A stretch of 64,000 nt of DNA, from assembly GCA_964516765.1 (NCBI GenBank), contig CAZEWZ010000007.1, positions 4,828-68,827 of the forward strand, written 5' to 3'. The DNA is from an uncultured Cryomorphaceae bacterium (GTDB lineage: Bacteria; Bacteroidota; Bacteroidia; Flavobacteriales; UBA7430). The position numbers were made by a program, and so were the translations under genes. This document shows, piece by piece, positions 5,119 through 59,194 of the stretch. Below the pieces are notes generated by a model. That model ran no database searches. It worked only from the letters and a program-made list of their open reading frames with translations, and was not told the origin of the DNA. Each line of letters begins with the position of its first letter. Within the stretch, counting starts at the first letter, position 1.

Positions 5119-7041
5119 TTAAATAGCCAAGTTTAATTTGATTCTAATTTGTTCAATTTTGCTTTTTATTTTCTTTGGGCTATAGCCACAAAGGTCATGT
5201 AATTCTTTTTGTGGACCATGCTCAATAAAGTTGTCGGGAATGCCTAGGCGATAAACTTCACTATTGTATTGATTGTCAGCCATAAATTCAAGTATAGAGG
5301 ATCCCATTCCTCCTGAAATACAACCATCTTCAATAGTAATCACATGTGGGTAATTTTGAAAAACCTCATGTAATATTTTTTGATCTAATGGCTTGGCAAA
5401 TCTCATATCATAATGTGCAATATGAAATCCCTCTTTGTCGAATTCCGAGCAGACTTCAGACGCGTAGTTTCCAATATGTCCAATCGATAATATTGCAATA
5501 TCATTTCCTGATTTTAGTTTTCTTCCAGTTCCTATTTTAATCGACTTGAAATCAGTTTTCCAGTCAATCATTACACCTTGCCCTCTGGGATATCTAATTA
5601 CAAATGGTCCGTGTTCATTTTCTTGAGCAGTAAACATAAGATTCCGAAGCTCCTCTTCATTCATAGGGGCAGATATGATCATATTTGGAATACATCTAAA
5701 ATATGCGATATCAAAAACACCATGGTGAGTTGGGCCGTCTTCTCCAACTAGACCAGCACGATCTATACAAAAAACTACATTCAAATTTTGAATAGCAACG
5801 TCGTGAACCACCTGGTCAAAGGCCCTTTGCATGAATGTAGAGTAAATATTACAAAAGGGAAGCATCCCTTGGGTAGCCATCCCGGCAGAAAAAGTGACGG
5901 CATGTTGTTCCGCAATCCCAACATCAAATGCTCTATCAGGCATTTCTTGCATCATGAATTTTAAAGAGCATCCGGTAGGCATAGCTGGAGTAATCCCTAC
6001 AATTTTATCATTTTTTTTGGCAAGTTCAATGATGGTGTGACCGAAAATATCTTGGTATTTTTGAGGGGACACAACATTTTTTTTAATACTTAATGATTTC
6101 CCCGAATCTTTATTGAAAAGTCCAGGGGCATGCCATTTTGTTGTGTCTCCATCTTCAGCAGGTTGATAACCTTTACCCTTAGTTGTGATGCAATGAAGTA
6201 TTTTTGGACCGGGTATATTTTTCAGGTCTTCTAGCACATGAATCATGTGCTCTAAATTATGTCCATCTACCGGTCCAAAATATCTAAAGTTTAATGATTC
6301 AAAGTAATTGCTCTGCTCGAGCATTGAAGACTTAATCGAGTTTTCTATTTTTTGAACTATAGATTGAGCACTGGGTCCAAATTTACTAAACTTACCGAGC
6401 AGATCCCAAACCTCATTTTTCACCTTATTATATGTTCGTGATGTAGTAATATCTGTAAGGTATTCTTTTAAAGCGCCTACATTAGGATCGATGGACATAC
6501 AGTTGTCATTTAAAATGACAAGAAGATTTGAGTTTTCAATCCCCGCATGATTTAAAGCCTCAAAAGCTTGTCCTCCAGTGAGTGCTCCATCTCCAATCAC
6601 CGCAATATGTTGTTTGTCTTTCTCTCCACTAAGTTGAGATGCAATTGACATTCCAAGGGCAGCCCCAATTGATGTAGAAGAATGGCCTACTCCGAAAGTG
6701 TCATAAATGCTTTCATCGCGTTTTGGGAATCCGCTAATGCCTTTAAACTTTCTGTTGGTATGAAAAATATCTTTTCGACCTGTAAGAATCTTGTGGCCAT
6801 AAGCTTGGTGACCTACATCCCATACAAGTTGGTCGTAAGGTGTGTTAAATACGAAGTGAAGAGCGACAGATAGCTCAACTACTCCCAAACTAGCACCAAA
6901 ATGACCGCCATTGACAGAAACTGTATCAACAATAAATTGTCTAAGCTCACCAGATAATTGCATTAATTGTGCAATGTCTAATGACTTTAAATCGTCTGGA
7001 GAATCAATTTGATTTAGTAGGGATGTTTTTTCTTTTGACAA
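5119..7041 (-). CDS. dxs: 1-deoxy-D-xylulose-5-phosphate synthase (TTG start)
   Basis: GGHFGASLG, WDVGHQAYGHKILTGR, GDGALTGG, DVGIAEQHAV, GEDGPTHHG motifs. Confidence 0.97.
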   Translation of the reverse strand: MSKEKTSLLNQIDSPDDLKSLDIAQLMQLSGELRQFIVDTVSVNGGHFGASLGVVELSVALHFVFNTPYDQLVWDVGHQAYGHKILTGRKDIFHTNRKFKGISGFPKRDESIYDTFGVGHSSTSIGAALGMSIASQLSGEKDKQHIAVIGDGALTGGQAFEALNHAGIENSNLLVILNDNCMSIDPNVGALKEYLTDITTSRTYNKVKNEVWDLLGKFSKFGPSAQSIVQKIENSIKSSMLEQSNYFESLNFRYFGPVDGHNLEHMIHVLEDLKNIPGPKILHCITTKGKGYQPAEDGDTTKWHAPGLFNKDSGKSLSIKKNVVSPQKYQDIFGHTIIELAKKNDKIVGITPAMPTGCSLKFMMQEMPDRAFDVGIAEQHAVTFSAGMATQGMLPFCNIYSTFMQRAFDQVVHDVAIQNLNVVFCIDRAGLVGEDGPTHHGVFDIAYFRCIPNMIISAPMNEEELRNLMFTAQENEHGPFVIRYPRGQGVMIDWKTDFKSIKIGTGRKLKSGNDIAILSIGHIGNYASEVCSEFDKEGFHIAHYDMRFAKPLDQKILHEVFQNYPHVITIEDGCISGGMGSSILEFMADNQYNSEVYRLGIPDNFIEHGPQKELHDLCGYSPKKIKSKIEQIRIKLNLAI

Positions 7042-7066: not shown

Positions 7067-7074
7067 CAAAGTTA
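7067..7074 (-). promoter_or_regulatory. Bacteroidota primary-sigma -7 box for dxs
   Basis: TAACTTTG on the minus strand (TAnnTTTG), about 25 nt upstream of the start. Confidence 0.65.
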
Positions 7075-7207
7075 CTAAACTATTGCCACATTTCTTAAGG
7101 TAGGGGTTGTTGTATAAAATTAAGATATTTTTTCATCAAAAATAATACCATAATTAATTCGTTTCTAATTTTGAACAGTTAAATTTAGGTAATACATAAG
7201 AAAAAAT

Positions 7208-7255: not shown

Positions 7256-8686
7256 ATGGATATAAAAAAAGTTTTAAGTTCTGGATTATCACAAGATTCT
7301 TTTCAGTTAAAAGGTTGGGTTCGATCAAAAAGAGGTAGCAAAAATGTATCCTTTATTGCTTTAAATGATGGATCCACTCTGCATAATATTCAAGTTGTTG
7401 TTGAAGGAGACCATTTTGAGGATACTATAAAGCTTATTCATACTGGAGCAAGTATTTTTGTAGAAGGAACGTTGGTTCACTCTAAGGGTGCTGGTCAGGC
7501 AATTGAATTGTTAGCTCAAAAAATCGAGGTGATTGGTCAAACCAATCCTGAGGAGTATCCCTTACAGCCAAAAAAACATTCATTAGAATTTCTTAGAGAG
7601 AAAGCTCATTTACGATTTCGTACAAATACTTTTGGAGCAATATTCAGAATTCGTCATGCCATGACTTTCGCGATTCATCAGTTTTTTAATAATAAGGGTT
7701 TTTCAAATATTCATACACCTATTATTACTGGTGCAGATTGTGAAGGTGCTGGAGAAATGTTTTCGGTGAGTACTTTAGAAAAGCATAGTCCGCCTCTTAC
7801 GAAAGAAGGAGCAATCGATTACTCCAGAGATTTCTTTGGAAAAGAAACAAATCTTACTGTTTCTGGACAGTTAGAAGCTGAAATGGCTGCCTTAGCGCTG
7901 GGTAAGGTTTATACATTTGGCCCTACATTTAGAGCAGAGAATTCAAATACTTCTAGACATCTAGCAGAGTTCTGGATGGTAGAGCCAGAGGTTGCTTTTG
8001 CCGATTTAAATGACAATATGTCTTTGGCTCAAGAGATGCTTCAGTATTTATGTTCATATGCATTAAAGAATTGTTTAGACGATTTGATTTTTCTTGATCA
8101 TCGTTTGGTCGAAGAGGAAAAACACAAGAAAAAGGAAGAACGACAAGAATTGGGTTTGATTAATAAACTGAAATTTGTGATTGAGAATGATTTTGAGCAC
8201 ATAACTTATACCGAAGCCTTTGATATTCTGAAAAATTCTAAACCTAATAAAAAAAAGAAGTTTAAATATTTAATTCACGAGTGGGGAGCTGATTTTCAAT
8301 CTGAACACGAACGTTTTTTGGTTGAGAAACAGTTTAAAAAACCTGTCATCATTACCGACTACCCAAAAGATATTAAGGCTTTTTATATGAGATTGAATGA
8401 CGACGGAAAGACTGTTCGCGCAATGGATGTACTATTTCCCGGAATTGGAGAAATCATTGGAGGTTCTCAACGAGAAGAGCGTTTCGATGTTTTGCAGTCT
8501 AGAATGCAGGAGATGGATATATCTCAGCATGAACTCTCTTGGTATTTAGATTCCAGAAAGTTCGGAACTGCACCACACAGTGGTTTTGGATTGGGCTTTG
8601 AAAGATTAATTCTATTTGTGACGGGTATGGGAAATATTAGAGATGTGATTCCATTTCCAAGAACTCCAAATAATGCAGATTTTTAA
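7256..8686 (+). CDS. asnS: Asparagine--tRNA ligase
   Basis: OB-fold [53 protein letters not shown]. Confidence 0.97.
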
Positions 8687-10140
8687 TGCTAAAACAGTCC
8701 CTTCAACAAAAAATATCTCAGAAACTTTCTCCACAACAGATAAAGTTAATGAAGTTAATACAACTGCCTACTATTGAGCTAGAGCAGAAAGTAAAGGAAG
8801 AGTTAGAAGAAAATCCTGCTATTGAAGAAGTGATTGATTTCGAAGAGGATATGGAAATCGATTTATTTGATTCCAGAGAAGAGCAGTCTAGAGACGGAAA
8901 TGATGTGAATATAGACGAGTATTTGAGTGATGATGAGATTCCTCGATATCGTCTTGTAGCCAATAACGCATCTCCTGATCAAGAAGATAAGTCAATACCA
9001 TTGGCTATGGGGGTTAGTTCTTTGGATTTTTTAGAGCAACAACTTTCACTTCTAAATTTAGATAATACAAAGTTTCAGATTGGTATGTTCCTAATAGGCT
9101 GTGTATGTGATGAGGGGTACATCAGGAGAGATATTTTTGCTATAGTTGATGACCTTGCCTTTTCTAAAGGTCTAGAAACAAACACAGAAGAAGTTTTAGA
9201 AGTATTAGAAGCAGTTCAAAATCTTGATCCTCCTGGAATTGGAGCTAGATCTTTGCAAGAATGTATTTTGTTGCAACTAGATAGAAAGCCTTTGAATTCG
9301 AGTATTGAAATAGCTAAAGAAGTTGTTTTAAATCATTTTAATGCTCTTTCGAAAAAACATTATGATAAGCTAATTTTAAAGTTATCTATAGATGAATATT
9401 CACTCCAAAGGGCATTAGATGAAATCAGTAAATTAAATCCAAAGCCAGCCGCATTTAGTTCTACTAAAATAGTACAGCACATTATTCCTGATTTTAAAAT
9501 ATCAATTATAGAGGGTCAATTAGATTTAACAATGAATACGGGAATGATACCTGAATTAAAAATCAACAGAGGATACAATGAAATGCTAGAGGCTTATAAA
9601 GAGTCTAAAAATAAGAGCAAATCAAAAGAGCAAAAAGAAGCCATACTTTTTGTGAAACAAAAATTAGATTCTGCTTCGTGGTTCATTGATGCTATTAAAC
9701 AAAGACACAATACATTAATGCTAACGATGACTACTATAATGAATTTTCAAAAGAATTATTTTCTTAGTGGGGATGAGAGTGAACTTAAGCCCATGGTTTT
9801 AAAAGATATAGCTGATATTATTAAGATGGATATTTCTACTATTTCTCGGGTCGCAAATAGTAAATATCTAGACAGTCCGTATGGTACATTTCTGATAAAA
9901 CATTTTTTTTCTGAAGCAATGAAAAATGATCAGGGAAACGACGTCTCTTCTAAAGAAATCAAGATGATTCTTAATGATGTTATCATTAAAGAATCTAAAA
10001 TAAAGCCCTTAACAGATGCTAAGCTAATGACAATATTAAAGAATAGAGGTTATACAATTGCAAGAAGAACGGTTGCTAAATATAGAGAGCAACTTAATAT
10101 TCCTGTTGCCCGTTTAAGAAAAGAGTTGAATTTGAAATAG
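8686..10140 (+). CDS. rpoN: RNA polymerase sigma-54 factor
   Basis: Gln/Leu-rich region I (LKQSLQQKISQKLSPQQIKLM), HTH DISTISRV, RpoN box ARRTVAKYRE; TAATG overlap with asnS. Confidence 0.97.
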   Translation: MLKQSLQQKISQKLSPQQIKLMKLIQLPTIELEQKVKEELEENPAIEEVIDFEEDMEIDLFDSREEQSRDGNDVNIDEYLSDDEIPRYRLVANNASPDQEDKSIPLAMGVSSLDFLEQQLSLLNLDNTKFQIGMFLIGCVCDEGYIRRDIFAIVDDLAFSKGLETNTEEVLEVLEAVQNLDPPGIGARSLQECILLQLDRKPLNSSIEIAKEVVLNHFNALSKKHYDKLILKLSIDEYSLQRALDEISKLNPKPAAFSSTKIVQHIIPDFKISIIEGQLDLTMNTGMIPELKINRGYNEMLEAYKESKNKSKSKEQKEAILFVKQKLDSASWFIDAIKQRHNTLMLTMTTIMNFQKNYFLSGDESELKPMVLKDIADIIKMDISTISRVANSKYLDSPYGTFLIKHFFSEAMKNDQGNDVSSKEIKMILNDVIIKESKIKPLTDAKLMTILKNRGYTIARRTVAKYREQLNIPVARLRKELNLK

Positions 10141-10208
10141 AAATTATATCTTATGACTTAATTAGATGCAAATTATCATGTTTATTCATGAAACTAATTA
10201 CTTATACA

Positions 10209-10216
10209 TATATTTG
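10209..10216 (+). promoter_or_regulatory. Bacteroidota -7 box for the ArsR-family gene
   Basis: TATATTTG, 24 nt upstream of the ATG; a small TCATG-N7-CATGA inverted repeat lies at 10176-10192. Confidence 0.55.
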
Positions 10217-10240
10217 TTTTAAATATTCCCCCCTGTTATT

Positions 10241-10531
10241 ATGAAAAAGTTTGATTTAAATAACCCAGAATTATTAAAAGCTGCATCTATTTTAAAAGTT
10301 TTAGGGCATCCCATACGTGTTTTAATTATTGAATTACTATTTGATTCAAAACGAATGACTGTCAGTGAAATATTTAAGGCTTTAAATATTGAACAAGCTA
10401 TTGCGTCTCACCATTTAAATACACTAAAAAATAAACAAGTCTTAGTCTCAGAAAGAGTAGGCAAAAACACCTATTATGCTGTTGCTGATATTAAGTTGAC
10501 GGAAATGATTTTAATTTTGAGGGGGGAGTAG
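10241..10531 (+). CDS. ArsR/SmtB-family (HlyU/NolR-like) transcriptional regulator with no cysteines
   Basis: LKVLGHPIRVLII, IEQAIASHHLNTLK HTH, SERVGKNTYY wing. Confidence 0.9.
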   Translation: MKKFDLNNPELLKAASILKVLGHPIRVLIIELLFDSKRMTVSEIFKALNIEQAIASHHLNTLKNKQVLVSERVGKNTYYAVADIKLTEMILILRGE

Positions 10532-10558
10532 AAATATCTAAATCTATAAATTGTTTAG

Positions 10559-10575
10559 TTGGCGCCAACTTTGCA
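10559..10575 (+). promoter_or_regulatory. sigma54 (RpoN) -24/-12 promoter of the C25 protease gene
   Basis: TTGGCGCCAACTTTGCA gives GG(10561-62)-N10-GC(10573-74), matching TGGCRC-N5-TTGCW, about 40 nt before the ATG at 10616. Confidence 0.75.
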
Positions 10576-10592
10576 ACTTATTAAATATAATT

Positions 10593-10610
10593 AATTAAAC
10601 TAGTTTAATT
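10593..10610. promoter_or_regulatory. Perfect 18-bp palindrome in the protease 5' leader (candidate operator)
   Basis: AATTAAACTAGTTTAATT equals its own reverse complement. Confidence 0.5.
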
Positions 10611-10615
10611 TTTTT

Positions 10616-13600
10616 ATGAAAAAAGCAGTATTTATTTCTTGTATGTTAAGTATTAATGCCTTTGCTCAAAATACTTCTCTACAATTGTTAGAAAACACAT
10701 CCCGATCAAGTCAATTTATTTTTCAAACTGGAGCGCTTGAATTTAAGACATCTGAATTCCAAAATGATTATTTCACTCTATTAGAGATGGAAGGCATGAC
10801 AAAATCTTACGACATAGGTAATCCAGACCTTCCAGTATTTACCAAGTTGATTGAAGTCCCAGCCGAGGGAGATATTTCGATTGATATATTTCAAAAGAAT
10901 TTTATTGAGATTGATCTAGCTCAAGTGGGTTTTCCTTATCAAGTATTCCCCTCACAGCCTTCCAGAAGTAAAAAGCACCTAGCGGCAGAAATACGCTTAA
11001 TTTTCAATAATCAGACTTACTCTGTAGATGAATTTTATTCTCAAGATCTAATTTCAGTCGAGAGAATTGGAGTGATGCGAGGAAAGTCCATTGCTAGATT
11101 GCAAATTGCACCATTATCATACAACCCTCTAACGAATTCTATATTAGAGGTAGAATATATCCAATTTAATTTAGCATTTGAAAATTCTATTCAACCGGTA
11201 AAGTCTGTCTATCAATCTCCATCATTTGAAACACATTTTTCCAAGTTAGCCAATCAGAGCTATTCTAAAAGCAATTTTTCTAATGCTCCTATACAAATGA
11301 TTCTTCTTGCGGACCCCATGTTTGAAGATGCTTTACAAGATTTTATACAATGGAAAACAAGGAAAGGAATTCAAGTTATTGAGGTATATAAAGGTCAAGA
11401 TGGCGTTGGAAATACTGCAGAATCAATGAAAGCCTATGTACAATCTATCTATGAAAATGCCACAGATGATACTGGTGCTCCCACTTATTTGTTAATCGTT
11501 GGGGACCATGAACAAATGCCGAGTTTTGATGAAGGGCAGCATGTCTCAGATATGTATTATTGTGAGTTTGATGGAGATGGAGATTACCTGCCTGAAATGT
11601 TTTATGGTCGGTTTTCAGCTAATTCAGTGTCAGAACTTTTACCTCAAATTGAGAAAACTCTTCAATATGAGCAATATACCATGTCTGACCCTACCTATTT
11701 AGATGAAATGCTCATGGTAGCAGGAGTAGATTCTTACTTTGCCTCGACTCATGGAAACGGTCAAATAAATTATGGTACTGATTATTATTTTAATTCCGCA
11801 CATGATTTAACTACCCATACTTTTTTGTATCCTGAGTCTGATACCCAAGCTGCGGAACAAGCAATTGTTGACCATATTAGTGAAGGAGTTGGTTTTGCAA
11901 ATTATACTGCTCATTGTGGACCAGCTGGTTGGTCAGACCCTTCTTTTGAAGTGTATGATGTTATCTCTCTTCAAAATGAAGACCAATACGGTCTATTCAT
12001 TGGTAATTGTTGCCAATCTAATACTTTTGATGGAACTACCTGTTTAGGGGAAGCCCTCCTTCGAGCAGAAAAGAAAGGTGCAGTAGGATATATTGGTGCT
12101 ACAAACAACACCCTTTGGGATGAAGATTTTTATTGGGGCGTTGGAAATGGGCCTATATCAGCTAATCCTACCTATAACGAATCCTCTGCGGCAGTTTATG
12201 ACTGCACTTTTCATGAAAATGAAGAGGTCGAAGAAATTTGGACAATCACTCAAGGTCAGATGCTTCAGGCAGGAAATTGGGCTGTTTCTGAGTCTAATGC
12301 AGATGATAAGTATTACTGGGAAATATATATGTTAATGGGAGACCCAACAGTACTTACTTATTATGGTAGGCCATCAATCCTTGAAGTAGTGCATTCAGAT
12401 GTATTGCCTCTTGGCGCATCAAGTCTAAATATTTCTACAGAGCAATATACTTATGTAGCAATCAATCAATCTGGAGTCCTATTAGATGCTTCATATTCTG
12501 ATGTATCTGGAGATGTAACTCTTTCTTTTGATCCGCTTAACAACATCGATCCTATAGAAATTGTTGCCAGCAAACAAAATAAACAAATATATATATCAGA
12601 AGTTAATGTCATTGCTTCAGATGCACCATTTATTGTGTATTCTGGATTGAGTATCAATGATGGAGATTCAGGTAATGGACTAGCTGAATCTGGAGAAAGT
12701 TTTAATGTAGATGTTAATCTTCATAATTATGGTGTGGAACCATCAAGTTCTCTTCAATTTACTGTTAATACTAGTAATTCTGATGTGGTTATCAGTTCAA
12801 ACCCAATTTCTATTGAAGATATGCCTGGTGAAGGAGACACAACAATAATAGATGCTTTTTCCATTGAATTACAAGGTATGTTCCAGGATCAAGATCCCGT
12901 TTCTCTTATTTTTACTGTTTCAGATGCAGAAGGTAACGAATGGATTACTTATGGAAGTTTCTTAGTCAATGCTCCATTCTTAGATGTCAGTTCTCACAGT
13001 TTAAATGATTCAGATGAAAATGGTTTTCTAGATTTTGGAGAATCAGCCGAATTATATCTATATCTTAACAATACCGGACATGCCAATAGCTCCGGGGGTA
13101 TTGCCAGTATATCGTCCGATTTCAGTTATTTAGAAATATTAGACAATGAAGTTTCTTTTGACGCATTTGCTCAAGGCCAACAAAGTATATTATCATTTCC
13201 TATCATGTTATCCGATGATGCACCCCCAGGTCAATCTTATTCCATAAATATTGATATAATTAACGAAGAGGGCTATTCGGATGCGTATTCGGTGACTTTT
13301 GAAACATCAAATTGTCCTTTGGCAGCAATGGAAGTCGAATTAAATTTAGCCACTGATTGGTTTGCTGATGAGATATTATGGCAGCTTTCTAATACTCAAG
13401 GGGAAGTTATAGGCTTTGCTGATTTTAATTCCTTAGAAAGTCAAACGACTTATCAGGATTTATTTTGTATTATTCCTAATTCGTATTTGACATTTACAAT
13501 AGAAGATAATTATGGAGATGGATTAAATTCCGAGGGTTATACTATCACGGTTTGTGGCCAAACTATTGCGTCAGGAAGTGATTATGGTAATGGTGAATCA

Positions 13601-13966
13601 ATATCTTTTATTGCTGGGTGTGACCAATCTTTGATGTTAGGATGTACTAATATTGAAGCTGCTAATTATAATGAAGCTGCTATTGTTGAAGACGGTTCTT
13701 GTGAATCTGGTATTGGATTTACAGAGCTGGAAAATAAGCTTATTATTTTCCCAAATCCGGCAAAAAATATACTCTTTGTTCGCAGCGAAGGTTTACTTAT
13801 TGAGTCACTTTATGTTATGGATCTGTCTGGTAAGAAGTTAATTTCTTTTTTTCCCATTGACGGTCTCCAAGAGATTAATTTAATGGGACTTGATGTAGGA
13901 TCATATCTCATTATTGTACAAACCTTAGATGGACTATCGATTAGAAAAAGTTTAATCATACACTAA
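10616..13966 (+). CDS. Gingipain (peptidase C25, Kgp-like) with propeptide, Ig-like repeats and T9SS type A C-terminal domain
   Basis: Signal peptide; propeptide GNPDLP; VGFANYTAH, IGNCC, GAVGYIG, WDEDFYW, LMGDP; C-terminal IFPNPAK...YLIIV...SIRKSLIIH. Confidence 0.92.
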   Translation: MKKAVFISCMLSINAFAQNTSLQLLENTSRSSQFIFQTGALEFKTSEFQNDYFTLLEMEGMTKSYDIGNPDLPVFTKLIEVPAEGDISIDIFQKNFIEIDLAQVGFPYQVFPSQPSRSKKHLAAEIRLIFNNQTYSVDEFYSQDLISVERIGVMRGKSIARLQIAPLSYNPLTNSILEVEYIQFNLAFENSIQPVKSVYQSPSFETHFSKLANQSYSKSNFSNAPIQMILLADPMFEDALQDFIQWKTRKGIQVIEVYKGQDGVGNTAESMKAYVQSIYENATDDTGAPTYLLIVGDHEQMPSFDEGQHVSDMYYCEFDGDGDYLPEMFYGRFSANSVSELLPQIEKTLQYEQYTMSDPTYLDEMLMVAGVDSYFASTHGNGQINYGTDYYFNSAHDLTTHTFLYPESDTQAAEQAIVDHISEGVGFANYTAHCGPAGWSDPSFEVYDVISLQNEDQYGLFIGNCCQSNTFDGTTCLGEALLRAEKKGAVGYIGATNNTLWDEDFYWGVGNGPISANPTYNESSAAVYDCTFHENEEVEEIWTITQGQMLQAGNWAVSESNADDKYYWEIYMLMGDPTVLTYYGRPSILEVVHSDVLPLGASSLNISTEQYTYVAINQSGVLLDASYSDVSGDVTLSFDPLNNIDPIEIVASKQNKQIYISEVNVIASDAPFIVYSGLSINDGDSGNGLAESGESFNVDVNLHNYGVEPSSSLQFTVNTSNSDVVISSNPISIEDMPGEGDTTIIDAFSIELQGMFQDQDPVSLIFTVSDAEGNEWITYGSFLVNAPFLDVSSHSLNDSDENGFLDFGESAELYLYLNNTGHANSSGGIASISSDFSYLEILDNEVSFDAFAQGQQSILSFPIMLSDDAPPGQSYSINIDIINEEGYSDAYSVTFETSNCPLAAMEVELNLATDWFADEILWQLSNTQGEVIGFADFNSLESQTTYQDLFCIIPNSYLTFTIEDNYGDGLNSEGYTITVCGQTIASGSDYGNGESISFIAGCDQSLMLGCTNIEAANYNEAAIVEDGSCESGIGFTELENKLIIFPNPAKNILFVRSEGLLIESLYVMDLSGKKLISFFPIDGLQEINLMGLDVGSYLIIVQTLDGLSIRKSLIIH

Positions 13967-14017: not shown

Positions 14018-15145
14018 CTAAAAGCTCATTTGAAGTCTGGTAAATAAGATTTTATTTATACTTTCTAATTCCTCACTTAGTTTCATCCACGTACTCTGGC
14101 TACTGATTATTAAATCCAGGGAATCAGATACGGAGCAGATGATTTGTGGGTTCAGAAAGACAAAGTCTAATTTCCCGTCATGAATTACTGCGGCCCCAAT
14201 TTGCACTAAAGGATGAAGTGGGTAATTAATTTGATACAGAAAATTATATTGAAACGGCATAGGGTTTTTCGCAGAAATTTTGGGTGAAAAAAGAGTAAAT
14301 GGACTGAAAGCCTCCACTTGATTCCTATATAAACAACCTATGCTAAGATACAAACCACTCTTAAAACTATAGTCACTACTGATACTTCCAAGCCAAGAGT
14401 ATTCTGATGTATTAAAATTTGAGAATGACGCAAATTCTCCTTTAAATCCTGCACCCTTTATTTGTCCAGCCCATCCGATACCTAAACTATAGTCGTCAAA
14501 ATACTTCCCTGCCAGGATTTGAAAATCATAGCTTTTTATATTAAAATTATAGAGTCCAGCCATAATATCTTTGTTTAAGGCCCACTCAACAGACTCGTTA
14601 TTTTTTCTAAAATACTCAATTCTCAAGGCATCTGCTCCTGGCCTTTCTATATAGTCGAAGTCAAAAAAGTCAGTTTGATTGAATAAATCATGAGAGTTCC
14701 AGTAATTTTGAATTCCCCAGTTTATTCTTTGTCTTCCATATCGGATTTTCCATTTTCCATTTTCCCATTGTGCGTATAATCGATCTATTTGATGGTGAAT
14801 CCCAAGTTTTTTTTCTTGTAAAGAACTGAATTGTAATGATGATGTTTCCAAGCCATCTCTGAAATTAAATAAATTTTCTTCCCACTGATAGCCCGAAAAT
14901 AATCGGTTTCTTACACTAATGTGAGCGCTCAAATGGTCTTCGTGGTAAATATGCCCATTCCATCTAAAATGAATTTGTTGATCTCTCCAGTCGGATGGAA
15001 TAGAAATCAAGTCGCTTAATTCTGGATTATAAAATTGAAAGCTGTTTAAATTGCTAGCGTAGTAGTTATGTTCGAAAATAGTTTGGGCCTGAAGCCATTG
15101 AAATATTGACAAGCATAAAATCAGAATATATTTAAACTGATTCAT
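14018..15145 (-). CDS. Putative outer-membrane beta-barrel protein of the ABC/LolA-like operon (start likely 15145)
   Basis: Signal peptide MNQFKYILILCLSIFQWLQAQ; IDRLY, YGRQRINWG and ERPGADALR alternating strands; C-terminal Phe (TRLQMSF). Confidence 0.65.
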   Translation of the reverse strand: MNQFKYILILCLSIFQWLQAQTIFEHNYYASNLNSFQFYNPELSDLISIPSDWRDQQIHFRWNGHIYHEDHLSAHISVRNRLFSGYQWEENLFNFRDGLETSSLQFSSLQEKKLGIHHQIDRLYAQWENGKWKIRYGRQRINWGIQNYWNSHDLFNQTDFFDFDYIERPGADALRIEYFRKNNESVEWALNKDIMAGLYNFNIKSYDFQILAGKYFDDYSLGIGWAGQIKGAGFKGEFASFSNFNTSEYSWLGSISSDYSFKSGLYLSIGCLYRNQVEAFSPFTLFSPKISAKNPMPFQYNFLYQINYPLHPLVQIGAAVIHDGKLDFVFLNPQIICSVSDSLDLIISSQSTWMKLSEELESINKILFTRLQMSF

Positions 15146-15815
15146 CACTAATGATTTTTCCATCTTCTATTGTTATAATTCTTTTTGCTTTATCAATAAC
15201 TCTTTGGTCGTGAGTGGAAAACAAAAAGGTGATATTTTCTTTTTCATTCATTTCTGCCATGATGTCTAGCAAAGTTGAGGTAGAACTACTGTCTAAGTTG
15301 GCAGTAGGCTCATCCGCAAGAATAAATCTAGGTTTTGAGGCTAGGGCTCTGGCGACTGCTACTCTTTGTTGTTGTCCACCAGACAATTGGTTAGGACGTG
15401 ATTTTAGTTTTTCAGACAATCCTACTTCAATTAAAAGCTCTTTACTTCTTTTTTTTCGGTCTTTTTCAGGAATTCCCTGAAGAAGCATTATGAATTCTAC
15501 ATTTTCTTGGGCCGTAAGTACTGGAATAAGATTATATGCCTGAAAGACAAATCCAATGTTTTTTAGCCGAAAGTCAATCATGTCATTTTCATTAAGGGAA
15601 CTAATATCTTTTCCGTCAATTTCTACAATCCCTTCACTTATTGAATCTAATCCACCAATCATATTTAGTAGCGTTGTTTTCCCAGACCCTGAAGGGCCTA
15701 CTATTGCTGTAAATTCTCCTTGATGAATACTCAAATCTACTTGCTGAACAGCTCTTACCTCCAAGTCATTATTTTTGTAAATTTTGCTAAGCTTAGTGGT
15801 TTTTATAATTTCCAT
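15132..15815 (-). CDS. ABC transporter ATP-binding protein (LolD/MacB-like)
   Basis: GPSGSGKTT Walker A, LSGGQQQRVAVARA signature, ILADEPTANLD. Confidence 0.95.
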   Translation of the reverse strand: MEIIKTTKLSKIYKNNDLEVRAVQQVDLSIHQGEFTAIVGPSGSGKTTLLNMIGGLDSISEGIVEIDGKDISSLNENDMIDFRLKNIGFVFQAYNLIPVLTAQENVEFIMLLQGIPEKDRKKRSKELLIEVGLSEKLKSRPNQLSGGQQQRVAVARALASKPRFILADEPTANLDSSSTSTLLDIMAEMNEKENITFLFSTHDQRVIDKAKRIITIEDGKIISDESV

Positions 15816-39860: not shown

Positions 39861-40047
39861 TCTACTATAAAAGTTATATTTATTTAATATAATTTAAAAA
39901 TATTTAATATTGATGTTTTTTGAGAGAATTAAACTAAAAAATATTTTGCAAAAATTAAAATAAAGACAGCGCCTAGATTCCGTGGTTTTTTCTTGTGACC
40001 AGTAATACGGTATGATATTTGAACAATTGGTTAAAGAAATAAGCTAT

Positions 40048-40614
40048 ATGAAAAATATCTTTGCTATTGTAACTTTGTTTTCTACCTTCATTATCTCAGC
40101 ACAACCCTCAGATACTATAGAAATCCCAAATTCTTATTGCGATTCTATTGTATTAAATCCTATACTTCCATTGTATGGAAATTTGGAAGATGATTTCCTC
40201 TTAGTGGGACTAGAAACATACTTTACTGACTACTCAATTTCTTATGCGGGTTTAATGCTCGTAAACTATTTAGGTGACACTATTGCAATTGAAACCCTCA
40301 ACTCTGCCGGTAATGTATATTCCATAGGACCTAATATGTCAGAAGAGAGACAATTAATGTTGATGGAAGATTTAGTGTTTCCTTTCACGGGAGAATTGTG
40401 TATAGTTGAAGGTTTATTTGCGGGAAATCCCAATATCGTTTGTTCTTATCCAGTAAATTGGAATTTTCTTGGATTAAACGAAATGCAGAATAAACCTAGG
40501 AAACTCATAAAAATGATTGATGTTTTAGGGAATGAGAAAGAAAATCATCAGTCAGGAAAAATCTTATTCTACCTTTATGATAATGGGGAAAGTAGGAAGC
40601 GTTACAAAATATAA
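40048..40614 (+). CDS. Exported hypothetical protein with a short T9SS-like C-terminal tail (start likely 40048)
   Basis: Signal MKNIFAIVTLFSTFIISAQ; tail RKLIKMIDVLGNE...ILFYLYDNGESRKRYKI. Confidence 0.7.
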   Translation: MKNIFAIVTLFSTFIISAQPSDTIEIPNSYCDSIVLNPILPLYGNLEDDFLLVGLETYFTDYSISYAGLMLVNYLGDTIAIETLNSAGNVYSIGPNMSEERQLMLMEDLVFPFTGELCIVEGLFAGNPNIVCSYPVNWNFLGLNEMQNKPRKLIKMIDVLGNEKENHQSGKILFYLYDNGESRKRYKI

Positions 40615-47651: not shown

Positions 47652-50600
47652 ATGCGTTATAGCAATGCTGTAATAATATATTTTACTTTTATTATTTTTC
47701 TTCTGTTCACAATTACAGTGAAGGGTCAAGACGATAGTCTTTCTCTGCCTTATCCACAAATGCTTTTTGGTCTACCTGATAATTTCGAAGAATCCATTGA
47801 ATATAATGTCGAGATGGGTGAATTTAGATTCCAAAATAATATTGGGACCTTTTCTATAGATCGTCCCAAGTTTATGAGTGAGTCTTCTTATAAAACTTGG
47901 CTGTTTAATCAACAAGTTCATGATTATTGGCGTCAAAAAGTACAGTCAAATTTACTTAATCAAGGGGTTGCTGGAACTAAGCCAAAACTTCAAATAGGTG
48001 GTGAATCTTTTAGTAGAATATTTGGAGGTAACACAGTAGATATTCGTCCTCAAGGAGCGGCCGAATTAACTTTTGCTGGAAATGTCGACAAAACAAAAAA
48101 TCCCAATCTAACCGAAAATCAGCAAAATAACGCGAGTTTTAATTTTGATCAGAGTATTCAAATGAATGTGATTGGTAAGATTGGTACTAAGCTTTCACTG
48201 AGGACTAATTACGATACAAAAAGTCAGTTTGATTTTGAAAATCAAATGAAATTAGAATATTCAGGTGATGAGGATCAAATTATCAAAAAGATCGAGTTAG
48301 GTAATGTTAGTCTACCTCTTAGTGGTTCCCTAATATCTGGTACACAAAGCCTTTTTGGAATGAAAACACAGTTTCAATTTGGGAAAACTACTCTGACGGC
48401 AGTCTTCTCCGAACAAAAATCTGAAACAAGTACTATTCGAGTAGATGGTGGAGCTCAGACTACAAATTTTGAGATTTTCGCTGATTCTTATGAAGCAAAT
48501 AAACACTTTTTTTTAGGCCAATATTTTTATGACAATTATGATAATTCCTTGTCAAATATGCCGATTGTTACTTCAAATATAACTATAACAAATATTGAGG
48601 TATGGGTTACCAACAAAACGGGTGTGACACAAAATGTGCGAAATATTTTAGCTTTTCAAGATTTAGGAGAAAATATCAACCAAGTTTACAATTCTCAAAT
48701 TTCTCCTGGTACATCTAATGGATATAATCCAGATAATGAAAATAATAGTTTGGCCCCAAGTAACTTAGTTTTAGATTTTCCAAATATTAGGAATGTTAGT
48801 CAAGTTACTACATTGTTGAATAGTGCTGGTTTTGAACAATCAGTAGATTTTGAGAAAATTGAGAATGCTAAAAAATTAACCAATTCTGAATACAGTTTTG
48901 ATCCTCGCTTAGGTTTCATTTCTTTAAATCAAGCGCTCAACTCTGATGAGGTCTTGGGAGTCGCGTACCAATATACTGTCAATGGAGCAGTTTCCCAAGT
49001 TGGAGAATTGTCTATGGATATTTCGTCGCCAGATGTGCTAGTTCTTAAGTTACTAAAAAGTACCACAATAAATATTGATTTACCTATGTGGAATCTTTTA
49101 ATGAAAAATGTTTATTCATTGGGAGCTTACCAGGTCAATAAAGAAGATTTTGACTTACAGATTTTATATCAAGATGATGAATCAGGAACTCCTCTCCCTT
49201 ATATTCCTGAAGAAGGCATGAGTGGTGAACTTCTCATACAGAAAATGAATCTAGACAACCTTAACCAGAATAATGATCCAGGACCAAATGGAGTCTTTGA
49301 CTTTATTCCTGATTTAACCATAAGAACATCTAATGGACGAGTGTATTTGCCGGCAAAAGAGCCATTTGGTAGTTATTTGAGAGCCAAGTTTATAGAGGCC
49401 GGATTGACCAATACCCTGGCAGATCAATATGTTTTTGAGGCCTTGTATGATTCCACTCAAACGGCAGCTTCTCAGGTAGCCGAACTTAATAAATTTATTT
49501 TAAAAGGACAGTATAAATCTTCTTCTGGAGCCGATATACCTCTTAATGCCATGTCAATTCCTCAGGGTTCTGTCACAGTATCAATGGGGGGAGCTCCTCT
49601 AGAGGAAAATGTTCATTATACTGTAGATTATAATTTAGGTCGTGTGAAAATCATTGATGAGGGAATTTTAAGCTCTGGACAGCAAATAGAGGTCCAGTTA
49701 GAAAATAATTCGGGTTATACTTGGATGACCAAACGGTATTTGGGACTTCATGCTGATTATAAATATAGTGATAATCTGATTTTTGGTGCGACACTCTTGA
49801 ATCTTTCAGAAAACAGCCAATCTCCAAAAATTAATATGGGAGATGAGCCTATTTCAAATACTATATGGGGATTTAATGGCTCTTATAAAACCGACGCTCC
49901 TCTTTTAACAAAATTGATTGACAAACTTCCGTTAATACAAACAAAAGAAAAGTCAAATATTGTTTTAACAGGAGAATTTGCTCAATTTATTCCAGGACAT
50001 CCAAAGTCGATTAATGTAGATAAAACTGGAACAGCTTATATTGATGATTTTGAAAATAGCCAATCTCCTATTGATTTAAGATCATCATTAGCTTGGAATT
50101 TAGCTAGTGTTCCTCAAGATGAAATGCTATTTCCAGAAGCTATTTTGACTAATGATTTGAGGTACGGATACAATAGAGCACTAATGTCGTGGTATACAAT
50201 TAACTCCGACTTGCAAAGAGAAACAGCTTATTCTCCTAGTCATTTAAATGATGAAGATAGAGAGGCACCATATGTTAGAGAGATTTCTATCAATGAAATT
50301 TTCCCTGATAAAGATATTCCCCATGGCCAACCTCTTCGATTAAGAACTTTTGATTTAGCCTTTTATCCCAATGAAAGAGGTCCTTATAACTTTGATGTGG
50401 AAGGTGAGGCCGGGATTTCTTTTGGTGTAAATCAAGAGGGAGATTTAAATAATCCATCTTCTAGATGGGGAGGTGTGGTCAGAGAAATTGATAATAATAA
50501 TTTTGAAGCTGCCAATATCGAGTTTTTAGAGTTTTGGATGATGGATCCCTTCATTGAAAATCCGACTGCTCCTGGAGGAGACTTTTACATCAATTTAGGG

Positions 50601-54935: not shown

Positions 54936-55263
54936 AATAAAACCTATATTGTGTTAAAGTTTATTTGTTAATAACTTTAGTAACACTCGCAGGTAAAAAA
55001 ACTAGCTGACTTTGCCTTACAAAATTTTTAAATCTAATTATACTTTATCAGTGACTATTGATAAAATGTAATATGCTGAAAATTATGAATCATATAACCT
55101 CGCACATTTATTACTACACTAATACTTCTCTCAGTATCAAAAGTGATAGAAAACATCCTTATTTTGAAATTATTATTTTTCACATTGATTTTTATTTAAA
55201 GCTCATTTTTAAAAAGAACATGTATCTTTAACAATAAATTAAAAGTCAAATTAAACTCTAAAT

Positions 55264-56850: not shown

Positions 56851-56868
56851 ATCTTGGTTTATCTTTTT

Positions 56869-56900
56869 AAAAAGGCTTCCTAGTTTTAGGAAGCCTTTTT
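56869..56900 (+). terminator. Intrinsic terminator
   Basis: AAAAAGGCTTCCTA-GTTT-TAGGAAGCCTTTTT perfect 14-bp stem followed by T. Confidence 0.92.
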
Positions 56901-56903
56901 TAT

Positions 56904-56911
56904 TAACTTTG
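56904..56911 (+). promoter_or_regulatory. Bacteroidota -7 box for the second redoxin gene
   Basis: TAACTTTG directly after the terminator, about 32 nt before the ATG. Confidence 0.65.
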
Positions 56912-56943
56912 TATTTAATATTTAGTTAAAACTTAATAATCAG

Positions 56944-58416: not shown

Positions 58417-58488
58417 TTTCATGTAATCTGATCTATACTTAATAAGTATTGGTATGTAATTTGTAGAATAAATTAAAAACTAACAATT

Positions 58489-59172
58489 ATGAAAAATTAT
58501 TTACTTACATTTATTTCTCTAATTAGCTTGACAGTATTTTCGCAGTCTCTGTCTATTGAGCCTCAGGAATATTATTTCTCCCCTTTTGGAGAACTATGTA
58601 ATGCTGATTTAGATATTACCAACCTGAGCACTCAAGATGTAAGTGTTCATGTTACTAGATCTGTAATTACAGATGTATCGAATTATTTCTGTTGGGGAAT
58701 CACATGTTATCCACCAAATAGCGATGCAATATTTACCTCAAGTAATCCTTTATTAATTCCAGCCGGTGAGACTCTTACTGGTGCTAATTCTTTTAAAGGC
58801 ACTGTAAATAATTTGCCTGAAGAATCTAGTTTATCGATTAACTATTGTTTTTGGATAGAAGGTAGTCCAGATGATGAGGTTTGTACAGATTTAATCTATA
58901 CAAATAAAGATATGTACGTCTCTTCGTCTGATATTTCTTTTATTCCAGAAATTTTCCCAAACCCAGCATTCAATCAGCTGAAAATAAAAGTAAAAGATGG
59001 TGTTGAATCTGAATTTATCCTGTTCGACATGCTCGGGAATAAAGTACTTCACAAAAAGATGCAAATCTCTTCAGTTATTAATATAAGTTCACTCGAATCT
59101 GGGATTTATTTCTATTCTTTTAATGTCCAGGGAGAAGATTCTGAGGTTCAAAAGCTAGTTGTCTCACATTAG
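58489..59172 (+). CDS. Small T9SS cargo, Ig-like domain with YFCWGITCY motif + type A CTD
   Basis: Signal peptide, IFPNPAFN...LFDMLGN...GIYFY...QKLVVSH. Confidence 0.85.
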   Translation: MKNYLLTFISLISLTVFSQSLSIEPQEYYFSPFGELCNADLDITNLSTQDVSVHVTRSVITDVSNYFCWGITCYPPNSDAIFTSSNPLLIPAGETLTGANSFKGTVNNLPEESSLSINYCFWIEGSPDDEVCTDLIYTNKDMYVSSSDISFIPEIFPNPAFNQLKIKVKDGVESEFILFDMLGNKVLHKKMQISSVINISSLESGIYFYSFNVQGEDSEVQKLVVSH

Positions 59173-59194
59173 CCAATTACATGAAATACTAACC

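What the first reader, a model, noticed from the sequence alone, without database searches (positions are those of the whole stretch)
10559..10575. Textbook sigma54 promoter in front of a gingipain-like protease, two genes downstream of rpoN
Seen: TTGGCGCCAACTTTGCA has exact GG-N10-GC spacing and a TTGCA -12 element. It places the start near 10586, about 30 nt before the ATG, and this intergenic region has no exact TAnnTTTG box (CAACTTTG overlaps the -12 element). Established: sigma54 holoenzyme needs an AAA+ enhancer-binding activator; none is encoded in this window. Inference: asnS-rpoN-arsR-protease may form a local circuit in which sigma54 switches on a T9SS surface protease. Sigma54 regulons in Flavobacteriales are poorly described.
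Basis: partly seen in the sequence, partly recalled or inferred. Interest (0 to 1): 0.7.

Follow-up and report, generated by a model that had tools for sequence, protein, structure and literature searches.

The report
Conserved sigma-54 promoter before secreted protease
The flagged 17 bases are very probably a real sigma-54 promoter driving a secreted gingipain-like protease in an uncultured marine flavobacterium; it is a new example of a regulatory arrangement already mapped in a cultured Flavobacterium, so it is solid but not surprising.

Summary
The motif TTGGCGCCAACTTTGCA lies exactly at 10559-10575 (+), 40 nt before the ATG of a Kgp-like C25 cysteine peptidase that carries a T9SS C-terminal sorting domain. 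The gene lies downstream of asnS, rpoN and an arsR-like gene.

A match this good is not significant across the whole 64 kb (1.49 expected). The weight comes from comparison. In 30 of 38 distinct orthologous upstream regions, a 16-nt island TTGGCAYA-N3-TTnGC sits 23-54 nt before the ATG, between unconserved flanks and often directly after the arsR terminator. Only 5 of 103 paralogue upstream regions score as well.

The island matches the TSS-mapped sigma-54 promoters of Flavobacterium psychrophilum (remF, dxs operon). A conspecific allele reads TGGCACTAACTTTGCA, a perfect canonical match. That allele breaks the window's 14-bp palindrome.

Metatranscriptome contigs from two orthologous lineages break between arsR and the protease gene and resume 10-20 nt after the predicted start.

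Caveats:
- The two closest relatives have lost the motif.
- The window has no terminator after arsR.
- A near-sigma-A box overlaps the -12 element.
- No activator is encoded in the window.
- No 5'-end or RpoN-dependence data exist.

The "local circuit" idea is unproven. Verdict: a new member of a known kind.

The parts
10559..10575 (+). Sigma-54 (-24/-12) promoter: TTGGCG (-24 element, GG at 10561-10562), 5-nt spacer CAACT after TGGCGC, TTGCA (-12 element, GC at 10573-10574).
   Evidence: Sequence. It is the only match with at most one mismatch in the window. Its position is homologous to the conserved island in 30 of 38 orthologous upstream regions. The conspecific allele is a perfect consensus match.
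10584..10589 (+). Predicted transcription start (about 10586). This is an inference, not a mapped site.
   Evidence: The -12 C is at 10574, and 12 nt further gives 10586. In the TSS-anchored promoter strings of F. psychrophilum, GG and GC fall at about -25/-24 and -13/-12.
10616..13966 (+). Target gene: an 1116-aa C25 (gingipain K-like) cysteine peptidase with propeptide, catalytic domain, Ig-like domain, an uncharacterised stretch of about 380 aa, and a T9SS type A C-terminal sorting domain.
   Evidence: Pfam finds Propeptide_C25, Peptidase_C25, Peptidase_C25_C and Por_Secre_tail. TIGR04183 scores 32.5 bits against a cut-off of 23. The Kgp structure 4rbm matches at E 9e-76, with His433, Cys466 and the S1 Asp aligned.
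10241..10531 (+). ArsR/SmtB-type winged-helix regulator gene (96 aa, no cysteine), conserved between rpoN and the protease gene.
   Evidence: Matches HTH_5 and NF033788. Translation. Synteny.
10209..10216 (+). Exact Bacteroidetes sigma-A -7 box TATATTTG, 25 nt before the arsR ATG. It is a possible source of read-through into the protease gene.
   Evidence: No terminator-like site was found in 10000-10800.
8686..10140 (+). rpoN (sigma-54) with activator-interacting, core-binding and DNA-binding domains and the RpoN box ARRTVAKYRE. Its ATG overlaps the asnS stop codon.
10566..10573 (+). CAACTTTG, one mismatch from the sigma-A -7 box TAnnTTTG, overlapping the -12 element. In the sister allele it is TAACTTTG, an exact match.
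10557..10570 (+). Perfect 14-bp palindrome AGTTGGCGCCAACT overlapping the -24 element. Probably incidental.
   Evidence: Sequence. It is broken by two substitutions in the conspecific allele and absent from all orthologues. The intergenic RNA fold is not unusual (z = -0.93).

Best explanation
10559-10575 is a sigma-54 (RpoN) dependent -24/-12 promoter for the downstream Kgp-like, T9SS-secreted C25 cysteine peptidase.

Inferred mechanism: RNA polymerase carrying the sigma-54 encoded two genes upstream binds GG (10561-10562) and GC (10573-10574) as a closed complex. An AAA+ enhancer-binding activator encoded elsewhere in the genome then remodels the complex in response to an unknown signal. Transcription starts near 10586, giving a leader of about 30 nt.

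The element is ancestral to this orthologue group of marine Flavobacteriales. In most members it follows an intrinsic terminator of the arsR-like gene, so the protease gene is insulated and depends on this promoter.

In the window's own lineage the terminator is gone. Read-through from the arsR sigma-A promoter, or the overlapping near-sigma-A box, may add sigma-54-independent expression.

What is shown: the motif, its conservation, its similarity to mapped flavobacterial sigma-54 promoters, and a transcript discontinuity in two orthologous lineages.

What is inferred: RpoN dependence, the exact start site, the activator and the inducing signal.
For: 1. Sequence. The site has exact GG-N10-GC spacing and matches TGGCAC-N5-TTGCW at 15 of 16 positions. 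It is the best such site upstream of any gene in the window.

2. Conservation. Of 38 distinct orthologous upstream regions, 30 carry the motif 23-54 nt before the ATG. G3, G4, T13 and G15 are present in 30 of 30. T2, C5, A6 and T12 are present in 29 of 30. The flanks are near random.

3. Scan-independent checks. T12 and A8 were not part of the scoring matrix. The 5-mer TGGCA occurs in 27 of 38 regions against 1.26 expected.

4. Control. Only 5 of 103 upstream regions of paralogous C25 genes score at least 10, and none scores at least 12.

5. Match to mapped promoters. Ten TSS-mapped F. psychrophilum sigma-54 promoters read TTGG[C/T]A[T/C]-N5-T[T/A]G (PMC9723704 supplement). The mutagenesis-tested remF promoter TTGGCACGATTTTAGTTGTG differs at 3 of 20 positions from orthologue L090. 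The dxs-operon promoter TTGGTATAATTTTAGCTATA differs at 3 of 20 from L001.

6. Conspecific allele. L091 and run X11 read TGGCACTAACTTTGCA, a perfect consensus. Both polymorphic positions lie outside GG and TTGC.

7. Independence from context. The motif persists where arsR is missing (L103) and in a different genomic context (L118).

8. Lack of symmetry. The motif is not dyad-symmetric, as expected for a sigma element rather than a site for a dimeric repressor.

9. Transcripts. In L102, RNA contigs of four runs end at 2339-2385 and restart at 2449-2485. The predicted start is 2436. Depth is about 3-5 times higher on the protease gene. In L098, three of four runs break in the same way and restart at 2339-2443, against a predicted start of 2329. 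No TAnnTTTG lies between the break and the restart.

10. Cognate sigma factor. A complete rpoN with an RpoN box is present.
Against: - No 5'-end mapping or RpoN-dependence data exist for any member.
- The window allele has G where 29 of 30 orthologues, and 9 of the 10 F. psychrophilum sites, have A. With a full-width matrix built from those 10 sites it scores poorly (5.6). With a core-only matrix it ranks 10th in the window.
- The two closest relatives (L081 at 73% and L082 at 77% protein identity) lack the motif, and their intergenic sequences cannot be aligned to the window. Homology of the window's site therefore rests on position only.
- Eight of the 38 lineages have lost or degraded the motif.
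- The window has no terminator after arsR.
- CAACTTTG (TAACTTTG in the sister allele) is a near or exact sigma-A -7 box overlapping the site.
- In the TAGATTTGGC subgroup of orthologues, the island also contains an exact TAnnTTTG.
- One RNA run (X38) has a contig running continuously across the L098 intergenic region.
- No activator or enhancer site has been identified.
- The orthologues are phylogenetically related, so the Fisher P value of 2.7e-18 is inflated.
Confidence: 0.75

Rival explanations
1. The protease gene in this genome is transcribed mainly by the housekeeping sigma-A polymerase. This would occur either from the overlapping -7-like box CAACTTTG (TAACTTTG in the sister allele) or by read-through from the arsR promoter (TATATTTG at 10209-10216). 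On this reading the -24/-12 match is a decaying remnant of the ancestral sigma-54 promoter with little activity.
For: - There is no terminator between arsR and the protease gene in the window, unlike about half of the orthologues.
- The closest relatives L081 and L082 have already lost the sigma-54 motif and must use another route.
- The window allele carries a G at the otherwise invariant A.
- The sister allele creates an exact TAnnTTTG.
- In X38 one RNA contig crosses the intergenic region of L098.
Against: - GG, TTGC and the spacing are intact in both alleles found in natural populations, and the second allele is a perfect sigma-54 consensus.
- Across orthologues the invariant bases are GG, C, A and G15. 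A sigma-A -7 box does not explain these. The G required by TAnnTTTG is present in only 9 of 30.
- The window's -7-like box lacks the conserved first T.
- This rival is compatible with sigma-54 acting in parallel: F. psychrophilum remF has two promoters (PMC9723704).
Confidence: 0.15
2. The match is a chance occurrence in AT-rich intergenic DNA and has no function.
For: Matches with at most one mismatch are expected 1.49 times per window. The window's intergenic sequence does not align with that of its nearest relatives, which lack the motif.
Against: - The expectation for this 84-nt region on this strand is about 0.001.
- A sigma-54-type island sits at the same place in 30 of 38 orthologous regions and in few paralogue controls.
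- The sister allele keeps and improves the motif despite 5 substitutions in about 85 nt.
Confidence: 0.05
3. The 14-bp palindrome AGTTGGCGCCAACT (10557-10570) is the operator of a dimeric regulator, for example the adjacent ArsR-type protein. The sigma-54 resemblance is secondary.
For: The palindrome is perfect, lies between the regulator gene and the protease gene, and ArsR/SmtB proteins bind inverted repeats (established knowledge).
Against: - The palindrome is broken at two positions in the conspecific allele.
- No dyad symmetry is present in any orthologous island.
- The island persists in L103, which lacks arsR.
- About 4 perfect 14-bp palindromes are expected per 64 kb by chance (own estimate: 4^-7 per position).
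Confidence: 0.05

Closest known systems
Sigma-54 (motif SM4) promoters of Flavobacterium psychrophilum, mapped by 5'-end RNA-seq; the remFG-sprCDBF promoter was tested by mutagenesis (Guerin et al. 2021, PMC9723704)
   Same: - Same class of bacteria and the same motif shape: TTGG[C/T]A[T/C]-N5-T[T/A]G.
- Same short leaders, and the targets are exported, envelope or T9SS-related proteins.
- Orthologue sites differ from the remF and dxs-operon promoters at only 3 of 20 positions.
- The window also has a conserved sigma-54-type motif upstream of dxs, as in F. psychrophilum.
   Different: - The target here is a C25 gingipain-like peptidase, which is not in the part of the published F. psychrophilum list that I read (Table 2A, a selection).
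- The organism is an uncultured marine lineage, and nothing has been tested experimentally.
- The window allele keeps the canonical -12 C (TTGCA), whereas several of the ten mapped F. psychrophilum sites I read have T or A there.
Canonical proteobacterial sigma-54 promoters (consensus TGGCAC-N5-TTGCW, e.g. glnAp2, nifH). The consensus is cited from memory of Barrios et al. 1999 and is quoted as TGGCACGnnnnTTGC in the PMC9723704 supplement.
   Same: GG-N10-GC spacing; 15 of 16 consensus positions in the window and 16 of 16 in the sister allele; a cognate rpoN with an RpoN box.
   Different: No nitrogen or flagellar context. No adjacent enhancer-binding protein gene or recognisable upstream activator site. 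The promoter lies only 28 nt after the stop codon of the preceding gene.
Gingipain K (Kgp) of Porphyromonas gingivalis, PDB 4rbm/6i9a
   Same: The propeptide, catalytic domain and Ig-like domain align (E 9e-76 for the catalytic domain, 7.5e-16 for the propeptide). The catalytic His/Cys and the S1 Asp are conserved. It has a T9SS C-terminal domain.
   Different: It has no haemagglutinin/adhesin domains and carries instead an uncharacterised segment of about 380 aa (residues about 665-1043). It comes from a free-living marine host. A full-text search for papers mentioning both 'sigma-54' and 'gingipain' found one paper, which from its title and abstract concerns another topic; I did not read its text.
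PorU, the C25-family T9SS sortase
   Same: Distant C25 homology and similar length.
   Different: NF052324 scores 46 bits against a cut-off of 450, and PDB 6za2 matches only at E 2.7e-4. No porV gene is adjacent. It is not PorU.

Membership tests
Sigma-54 dependent (-24/-12) promoter | GG and GC dinucleotides separated by exactly 10 nt, within TGGCAC-N5-TTGCW | tested here: met
   GG is at 10561-10562 and GC at 10573-10574. The site has 1 mismatch in 16, and the conspecific allele has 0 mismatches.
Sigma-54 dependent (-24/-12) promoter | Intergenic position, oriented toward a gene and at a promoter-like distance from it | tested here: met
   It lies 40 nt before the ATG at 10616 and 28 nt after the arsR stop codon.
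Sigma-54 dependent (-24/-12) promoter | Conservation of the -24 and -12 elements and their spacing upstream of orthologous genes | tested here: met
   The motif is present in 30 of 38 distinct orthologous regions, against 5 of 103 paralogue controls. GG and G15 are invariant and the flanks are unconserved. It has been lost in 8 lineages, including the two nearest relatives.
Sigma-54 dependent (-24/-12) promoter | The genome encodes sigma-54 with an RpoN box | tested here: met
   rpoN is at 8686-10140. TIGR02395 scores 370 bits, and the RpoN box ARRTVAKYRE is present.
Sigma-54 dependent (-24/-12) promoter | A cognate AAA+ enhancer-binding activator (PF00158, GAFTGA) and an upstream activator site | not testable with these tools
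   None is encoded in the 64-kb window. The rest of the genome is not available here. No enhancer site was identified.
Sigma-54 dependent (-24/-12) promoter | Transcription start about 12 nt after the -12 C, and dependence on RpoN | tested here: inconclusive
   No RNA covers the window's own promoter region. In orthologues L102 and L098, RNA contigs break after arsR and resume 10-20 nt after the predicted start. These are assembled contigs, not 5'-end data, and one run shows read-through.
Bacteroidetes sigma-A promoter (-7 box TAnnTTTG) | An exact TAnnTTTG box 5-40 nt upstream of the start codon | tested here: not met
   No exact box lies in 10532-10615. CAACTTTG has one mismatch. The sister allele has the exact TAACTTTG, so this rival cannot be excluded for that allele.
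Peptidase family C25 (gingipains) | C25 catalytic domain with the His/Cys dyad | tested here: met
   PF01364 matches at E 1.4e-57. His433 and Cys466 align with the catalytic His and Cys of Kgp in 4rbm. The Kgp residue numbering is from memory.
T9SS cargo (type A C-terminal domain) | C-terminal sorting domain at the extreme C-terminus, plus an N-terminal signal peptide | tested here: met
   TIGR04183 scores 32.5 bits against a cut-off of 23 at residues 1044-1114 of 1116. Pfam PF18962 scores 25.6 bits, just under its cut-off of 27. The N-terminus MKKAVFISCMLSINAFAQ looks like a signal peptide (read from the sequence). The T9SS translocon gene sprA lies in the same window.

The most novel reading that the evidence does not exclude
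In this uncultured marine Flavobacteriales clade, sigma-54 may act as a dedicated switch for part of the T9SS secretome. If so, the conserved rpoN-arsR-C25 module would be a self-contained unit: the sigma factor, a cysteine-free ArsR-type repressor and a Kgp-like protease are inherited together, and sigma-54 and the repressor jointly gate secretion of the protease. In support, two of the seven T9SS-cargo genes in the window carry conserved sigma-54-type promoters: the C25 gene and the gene at 58489-59172. One sublineage (L081/L093/L171) has lost both motifs while keeping the one at dxs, which would suggest that a sub-regulon turns over in a coordinated way.
Probability: 0.2. Interest if true: 0.6.

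Novelty: new member of a known kind. Interest (0 to 1): 0.45.

Why it matters
Marine Flavobacteriales are major degraders of algal and particulate protein, and their T9SS-secreted peptidases do much of that work. How these enzymes are switched on is hardly known, because the relevant lineages are uncultured.

A conserved sigma-54 promoter in front of a highly expressed gingipain-like protease implies signal-dependent, activator-gated control rather than constitutive secretion. The same organism has similar motifs at a second T9SS cargo gene and at dxs. This extends the sigma-54 regulon mapped in the fish pathogen F. psychrophilum to free-living ocean bacteria.

It also yields a lineage-specific motif, TTGGCAYA-N3-TTnGC, that can be used to predict the regulon in metagenome-assembled genomes. 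The finding adds a target to a known regulatory scheme. It does not reveal a new mechanism.

Tried and rejected
1. **Whole-window significance of the motif.** Not significant on its own. I moved to comparative evidence.

2. **GTDB genome scan with the C25 protein.** 77 of the 80 loci were paralogue-like C25 genes, with about 35-46% identity, no rpoN/arsR synteny and no motif. I used them as a negative control.

3. **Full-width matrix from 10 F. psychrophilum sites.** It overfits the spacer and scored the window's site low (5.6). I replaced it with a core-only matrix.

4. **Palindrome as operator or terminator.** Rejected. It is broken in the conspecific allele and absent in orthologues, no terminator was called, and the fold z-score is -0.93.

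5. **PorU identity of the C25 protein.** Rejected.

6. **Known RNA element in the leader or intergenic region.** Only a sub-threshold DUF805b hit inside arsR.

7. **RNA evidence for the window's own lineage.** Two metatranscriptomes hold only a few short contigs within rpoN and the protease coding sequence, and none at the promoter.

8. **Conservation test of the third extra motif (40007).** The only homologue fetched (L178) has a different N-terminal architecture, so it was uninformative.

9. **Search for an activator in the window.** Searched by motif and by Pfam; none found.

10. **Literature link between sigma-54 and gingipains.** A full-text search found one paper containing both terms, which I did not read.

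Full report
**Observation**

The 17-mer TTGGCGCCAACTTTGCA is at 10559-10575 on the + strand. GG (10561-10562) and GC (10573-10574) are separated by exactly 10 nt. The site matches TGGCAC-N5-TTGCW with one mismatch, a G at 10564.

It lies in the 84-nt gap between an arsR-like gene (10241-10531) and an 1116-aa gene starting at 10616. Pfam and NCBIfam confirm the gene order:
- dxs (5119-7041, minus strand)
- asnS (7256-8686)
- rpoN (8686-10140; all three sigma-54 domains; TIGR02395 at 370 bits)
- an ArsR/SmtB-type regulator
- a C25 peptidase with propeptide, catalytic domain, Ig-like domain and a T9SS type A sorting domain

The window as a whole looks like an uncultured marine member of the Flavobacteriales. 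Near-identical sequence is present in seawater metagenomes, and the relatives are Flavobacteriales MAGs.

**Is it more than chance?**

Not on motif quality alone. Matches with at most one mismatch are expected 1.49 times in 64 kb on both strands, and 80 of 100 shuffles have at least one. It is, however, the only such match in the window. It is also the best GG-N10-GC site upstream of any gene. The expectation for this one 84-nt region on this strand is about 0.001 (scaled).

**The target gene**

- The best solved relative is Lys-gingipain: 4rbm at E 9e-76 for the catalytic domain and 5mun at E 7.5e-16 for the propeptide.
- The catalytic His and Cys (His433, Cys466 here) and the Asp at the bottom of the Kgp S1 pocket align. 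The Kgp residue numbering is from memory.
- It is not PorU (46 bits against a cut-off of 450; 6za2 at E 2.7e-4).

**Comparative evidence**

A GTDB scan returned 80 loci, only three of which (L001-L003) were true orthologues. The other 77 are paralogue-like C25 genes without rpoN/arsR synteny and, with a few weak exceptions, without a comparable motif.

A protein search showed a clean orthologue group: about 55 clusters with 48-100% identity over the full length. Identity then drops to about 43% with 75-80% coverage. I fetched contexts for eight of the clusters and 31 more orthologous loci from metagenomes.

*Synteny.* asnS-rpoN-arsR-C25 holds in 40 of the 43 loci that have enough upstream sequence. 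The exceptions are L103 (no arsR; C25 follows rpoN directly) and L118 and L120 (a different context).

*The motif.* After removing duplicates there are 38 distinct upstream regions.
- 30 carry a site scoring at least 10 with a core-only matrix built from F. psychrophilum sites. It always lies 23-54 nt before the ATG, and mostly 23-41 nt.
- Aligned on the site, the logo is T2 G3 G4 C5 A6 Y7 A8 n n n T12 T13 n G15 C16. G3, G4, T13 and G15 are 30/30. T2, C5, A6 and T12 are 29/30. A8 is 26/30 and C16 is 22/30.
- Positions outside the 16-mer are close to random.
- T12 and A8 were not used for scoring, so their conservation is independent of the scan.
- A matrix-free check gives the same answer: the 5-mer TGGCA is in 27 of 38 regions against 1.26 expected from composition.
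- As a control, 103 distinct upstream regions of paralogous C25 genes give 5 sites scoring at least 10 and none at least 12. Fisher's P is 2.7e-18, but this is inflated because the orthologues are related.
- In 15 to 17 of the 30, the site abuts an intrinsic terminator hairpin plus T-run that ends the arsR transcript.

**Comparison with experimentally mapped promoters**

The F. psychrophilum transcriptome study identified motif SM4 as the sigma-54 motif from 5'-end RNA-seq. It confirmed the SM4 element of the remFG-sprCDBF operon by mutagenesis. The regulon covers chaperones, gliding and T9SS cargo, exported proteins and the dxs operon, and the genome encodes three PF00158 activators (PMC9723704).

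I extracted ten SM4 promoter strings from its Table S2. They read TTGG[C/T]A[T/C]-N5-T[T/A]G followed by C, T or A. The -12 C is therefore not conserved in flavobacteria, and TAG can replace TTG.
- The remF promoter TTGGCACGATTTTAGTTGTG differs at 3 of 20 positions from the L090 site TTGGCACATTTTTAGCTGTG.
- The dxs-operon promoter TTGGTATAATTTTAGCTATA differs at 3 of 20 from the L001 site TTGGCATATTATTAGCTATA.
- In those TSS-anchored strings, GG and GC fall at about -25/-24 and -13/-12. This puts the window's start at about 10586.

**The window's own allele**

It is unusual in having G at position 6 (10564) and C at position 8.

A conspecific contig (L091, 100% identical over the first 330 residues) and a contig in run X11 carry G10564A and C10566T. 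These give TTGGCACTAACTTTGCA, a perfect canonical match. X1 and X5 carry the window's allele. Five substitutions fall in about 85 intergenic nt, and none touches GG or TTGC.

The same two changes break the perfect 14-bp palindrome AGTTGGCGCCAACT (10557-10570). No orthologue has a dyad at the site. I therefore reject an operator reading of the palindrome.

**Transcripts**

- *The window's lineage.* Two metatranscriptomes hold only a few short contigs within rpoN and the protease coding sequence.
- *L102* (GG at 2411-2412, GC at 2423-2424, predicted start 2436, ATG 2453). RNA contigs of four runs end at 2339-2385 and restart at 2449, 2454, 2454 and 2485. Nothing covers 2386-2448. Depth is about 3-5 times higher on the protease gene than on arsR and rpoN.
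- *L098* (predicted start 2329, ATG 2342). Three runs end at 2164-2258 and restart at 2339, 2350 and 2443. One run (X38) has a continuous low-depth contig covering 2219-2420.
- L098 has no TAnnTTTG between the break and the restart (read).

These are assembled contigs, not 5' ends. They show an independent, well-expressed transcript that begins in the short segment holding the motif. They do not show the exact start or RpoN dependence.

**Evidence against, and limits**

- The two closest relatives (L082 at 77% and L081 at 73%) lack the motif, and their intergenic DNA does not align with the window's.
- Eight of 38 lineages have lost or degraded the motif. One example is L105, where GG has become AG.
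- The window has no terminator after arsR. arsR has its own exact sigma-A box, TATATTTG, at 10209-10216, so read-through is plausible.
- CAACTTTG (10566-10573) is one mismatch from the sigma-A -7 box, and the box is exact in the sister allele.
- In the TAGATTTGGC subgroup of orthologues the island itself contains an exact TAnnTTTG. Across all 30, however, the G that this box requires is present in only 9. A sigma-A box also does not explain the invariant GG, C and A.
- No activator gene (PF00158, GAFTGA) is in the window, and no enhancer site was identified.

**Other sigma-54-type sites in the window**

- ATGGTATTATTTTTGA at 7151-7136 (minus strand) lies upstream of dxs. It is conserved in L081, L087, L089, L002 and L003, and F. 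psychrophilum dxs has a mapped sigma-54 promoter.
- TTGGTATGTAATTTGT at 58449-58464 lies 24 nt before a T9SS-cargo gene. It is conserved in L177 and L174 and lost in L171.
- ACGGTATGATATTTGA at 40007-40022 lies 25 nt before the likely true start (40048) of an exported protein. This one is untested.

Two of the seven genes with a T9SS sorting domain in the window therefore have such a site.

**Conclusion**

The best explanation, at a confidence of about 0.75, is an ancestral sigma-54 promoter for a secreted Kgp-like protease, retained in this genome. It may now work alongside sigma-A-driven transcription.

The 'local circuit' with rpoN and arsR is not established. The promoter persists without arsR and outside the rpoN context, and it has been lost within conserved synteny.

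Sigma-54 control of exported and T9SS proteins in flavobacteria has been published (PMC9723704). The computational sigma-54 survey PMC12316311 also covers Flavobacteriia; C25 peptidases did not appear in the passages I retrieved with the search terms 'protease' and 'peptidase'. This is therefore a new member of a known kind.

Noticed in passing
window 7136-7151 (- strand), between asnS and dxs: A sigma-54-type motif ATGGTATTATTTTTGA lies 94 nt upstream of the TTG start of dxs (7041). TGGTAY-N5-TTGA is conserved at the same place in L081, L087, L089, L002 and L003 but not in L088. In F. psychrophilum the dxs operon has a TSS-mapped sigma-54 promoter. The motif overlaps an exact sigma-A box TATTTTTG (7137-7144), and a second exact box TAACTTTG lies closer to dxs (7067-7074), so there may be two promoters.
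   Followed up: partly
window 58449-58464 (+), upstream of 58489-59172: A sigma-54-type motif TTGGTATGTAATTTGT lies 24 nt before a 227-aa protein with a T9SS sorting domain. It is conserved upstream of orthologues in L177 (TTGGTATGTTATTTGT) and L174 (TTGGTACACTTTTTGA, after a terminator). It is absent in L171.
   Followed up: partly
window 40007-40022 (+); ORF 40012-40614: A sigma-54-type motif ACGGTATGATATTTGA overlaps the first ATG of the ORF. The signal-peptide-like sequence MKNIFAIVTLFSTFIISAQ starts at the in-frame ATG at 40048, 25 nt after the motif, so 40048 is the likelier start codon. The protein has no Pfam hit. The one homologue context fetched (L178) has a different N-terminal architecture and gave no test.
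   Followed up: partly
L081/L092/L093 and L171 (contigs MDTC01186192.1 and MDTC01269892.1, from the same assembly): The sister lineage of the window's organism lacks the sigma-54-type motif both upstream of the C25 gene and upstream of the orthologue of 58489-59172. It keeps the motif at dxs. This may be a coordinated loss of part of the regulon.
   Followed up: no
L103 (2426-2500), L118, L120: In L103 the arsR-like gene is absent and the C25 gene follows rpoN directly, with the motif intact. In L118 the C25 orthologue lies in a context without rpoN or arsR and still has a strong motif (TCGGCATAGTTATTGT). L120 is also out of context and has no motif.
   Followed up: partly
window 47652-59848: The T9SS translocon gene sprA (2427 aa) is followed by four consecutive genes for proteins with a T9SS sorting domain. 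The first combines a Cleaved_Adhesin domain with a thioredoxin/AhpC-like domain. More distant orthologues of the third gene (55%, e.g. L177) carry an extra cupredoxin (Copper-bind) domain.
   Followed up: no
window 10241-10531: The ArsR/SmtB-type protein has no cysteine at all, so it lacks the usual Cys-based metal or redox sensing sites of this family. Its ligand and its target are unknown.
   Followed up: no
window 10547-10554 (+): TAAATTGT matches the F. psychrophilum SM5 box TAnnTTGY and lies just upstream of the sigma-54 motif. This recalls the paired SM4 and SM5 promoters of remF. A chance match is quite likely in this AT-rich DNA (roughly 0.1 expected in the region, own estimate).
   Followed up: no
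window 14018-15163 (- strand): A 381-aa ORF convergent with the protease gene has no Pfam or NCBIfam hit. It is conserved next to the C25 gene only in the closest relatives (L081, L082). It is followed by genes for an ABC ATPase, two FtsX/MacB-type permeases and a LolA-like protein.
   Followed up: no
L102 and L098 (orthologous loci): The C25 orthologues are well represented in marine metatranscriptomes (up to 91% and 70% of the sampled words). Their depth equals or exceeds that of the neighbouring asnS and rpoN genes, so this protease is actively expressed in the ocean.
   Followed up: partly
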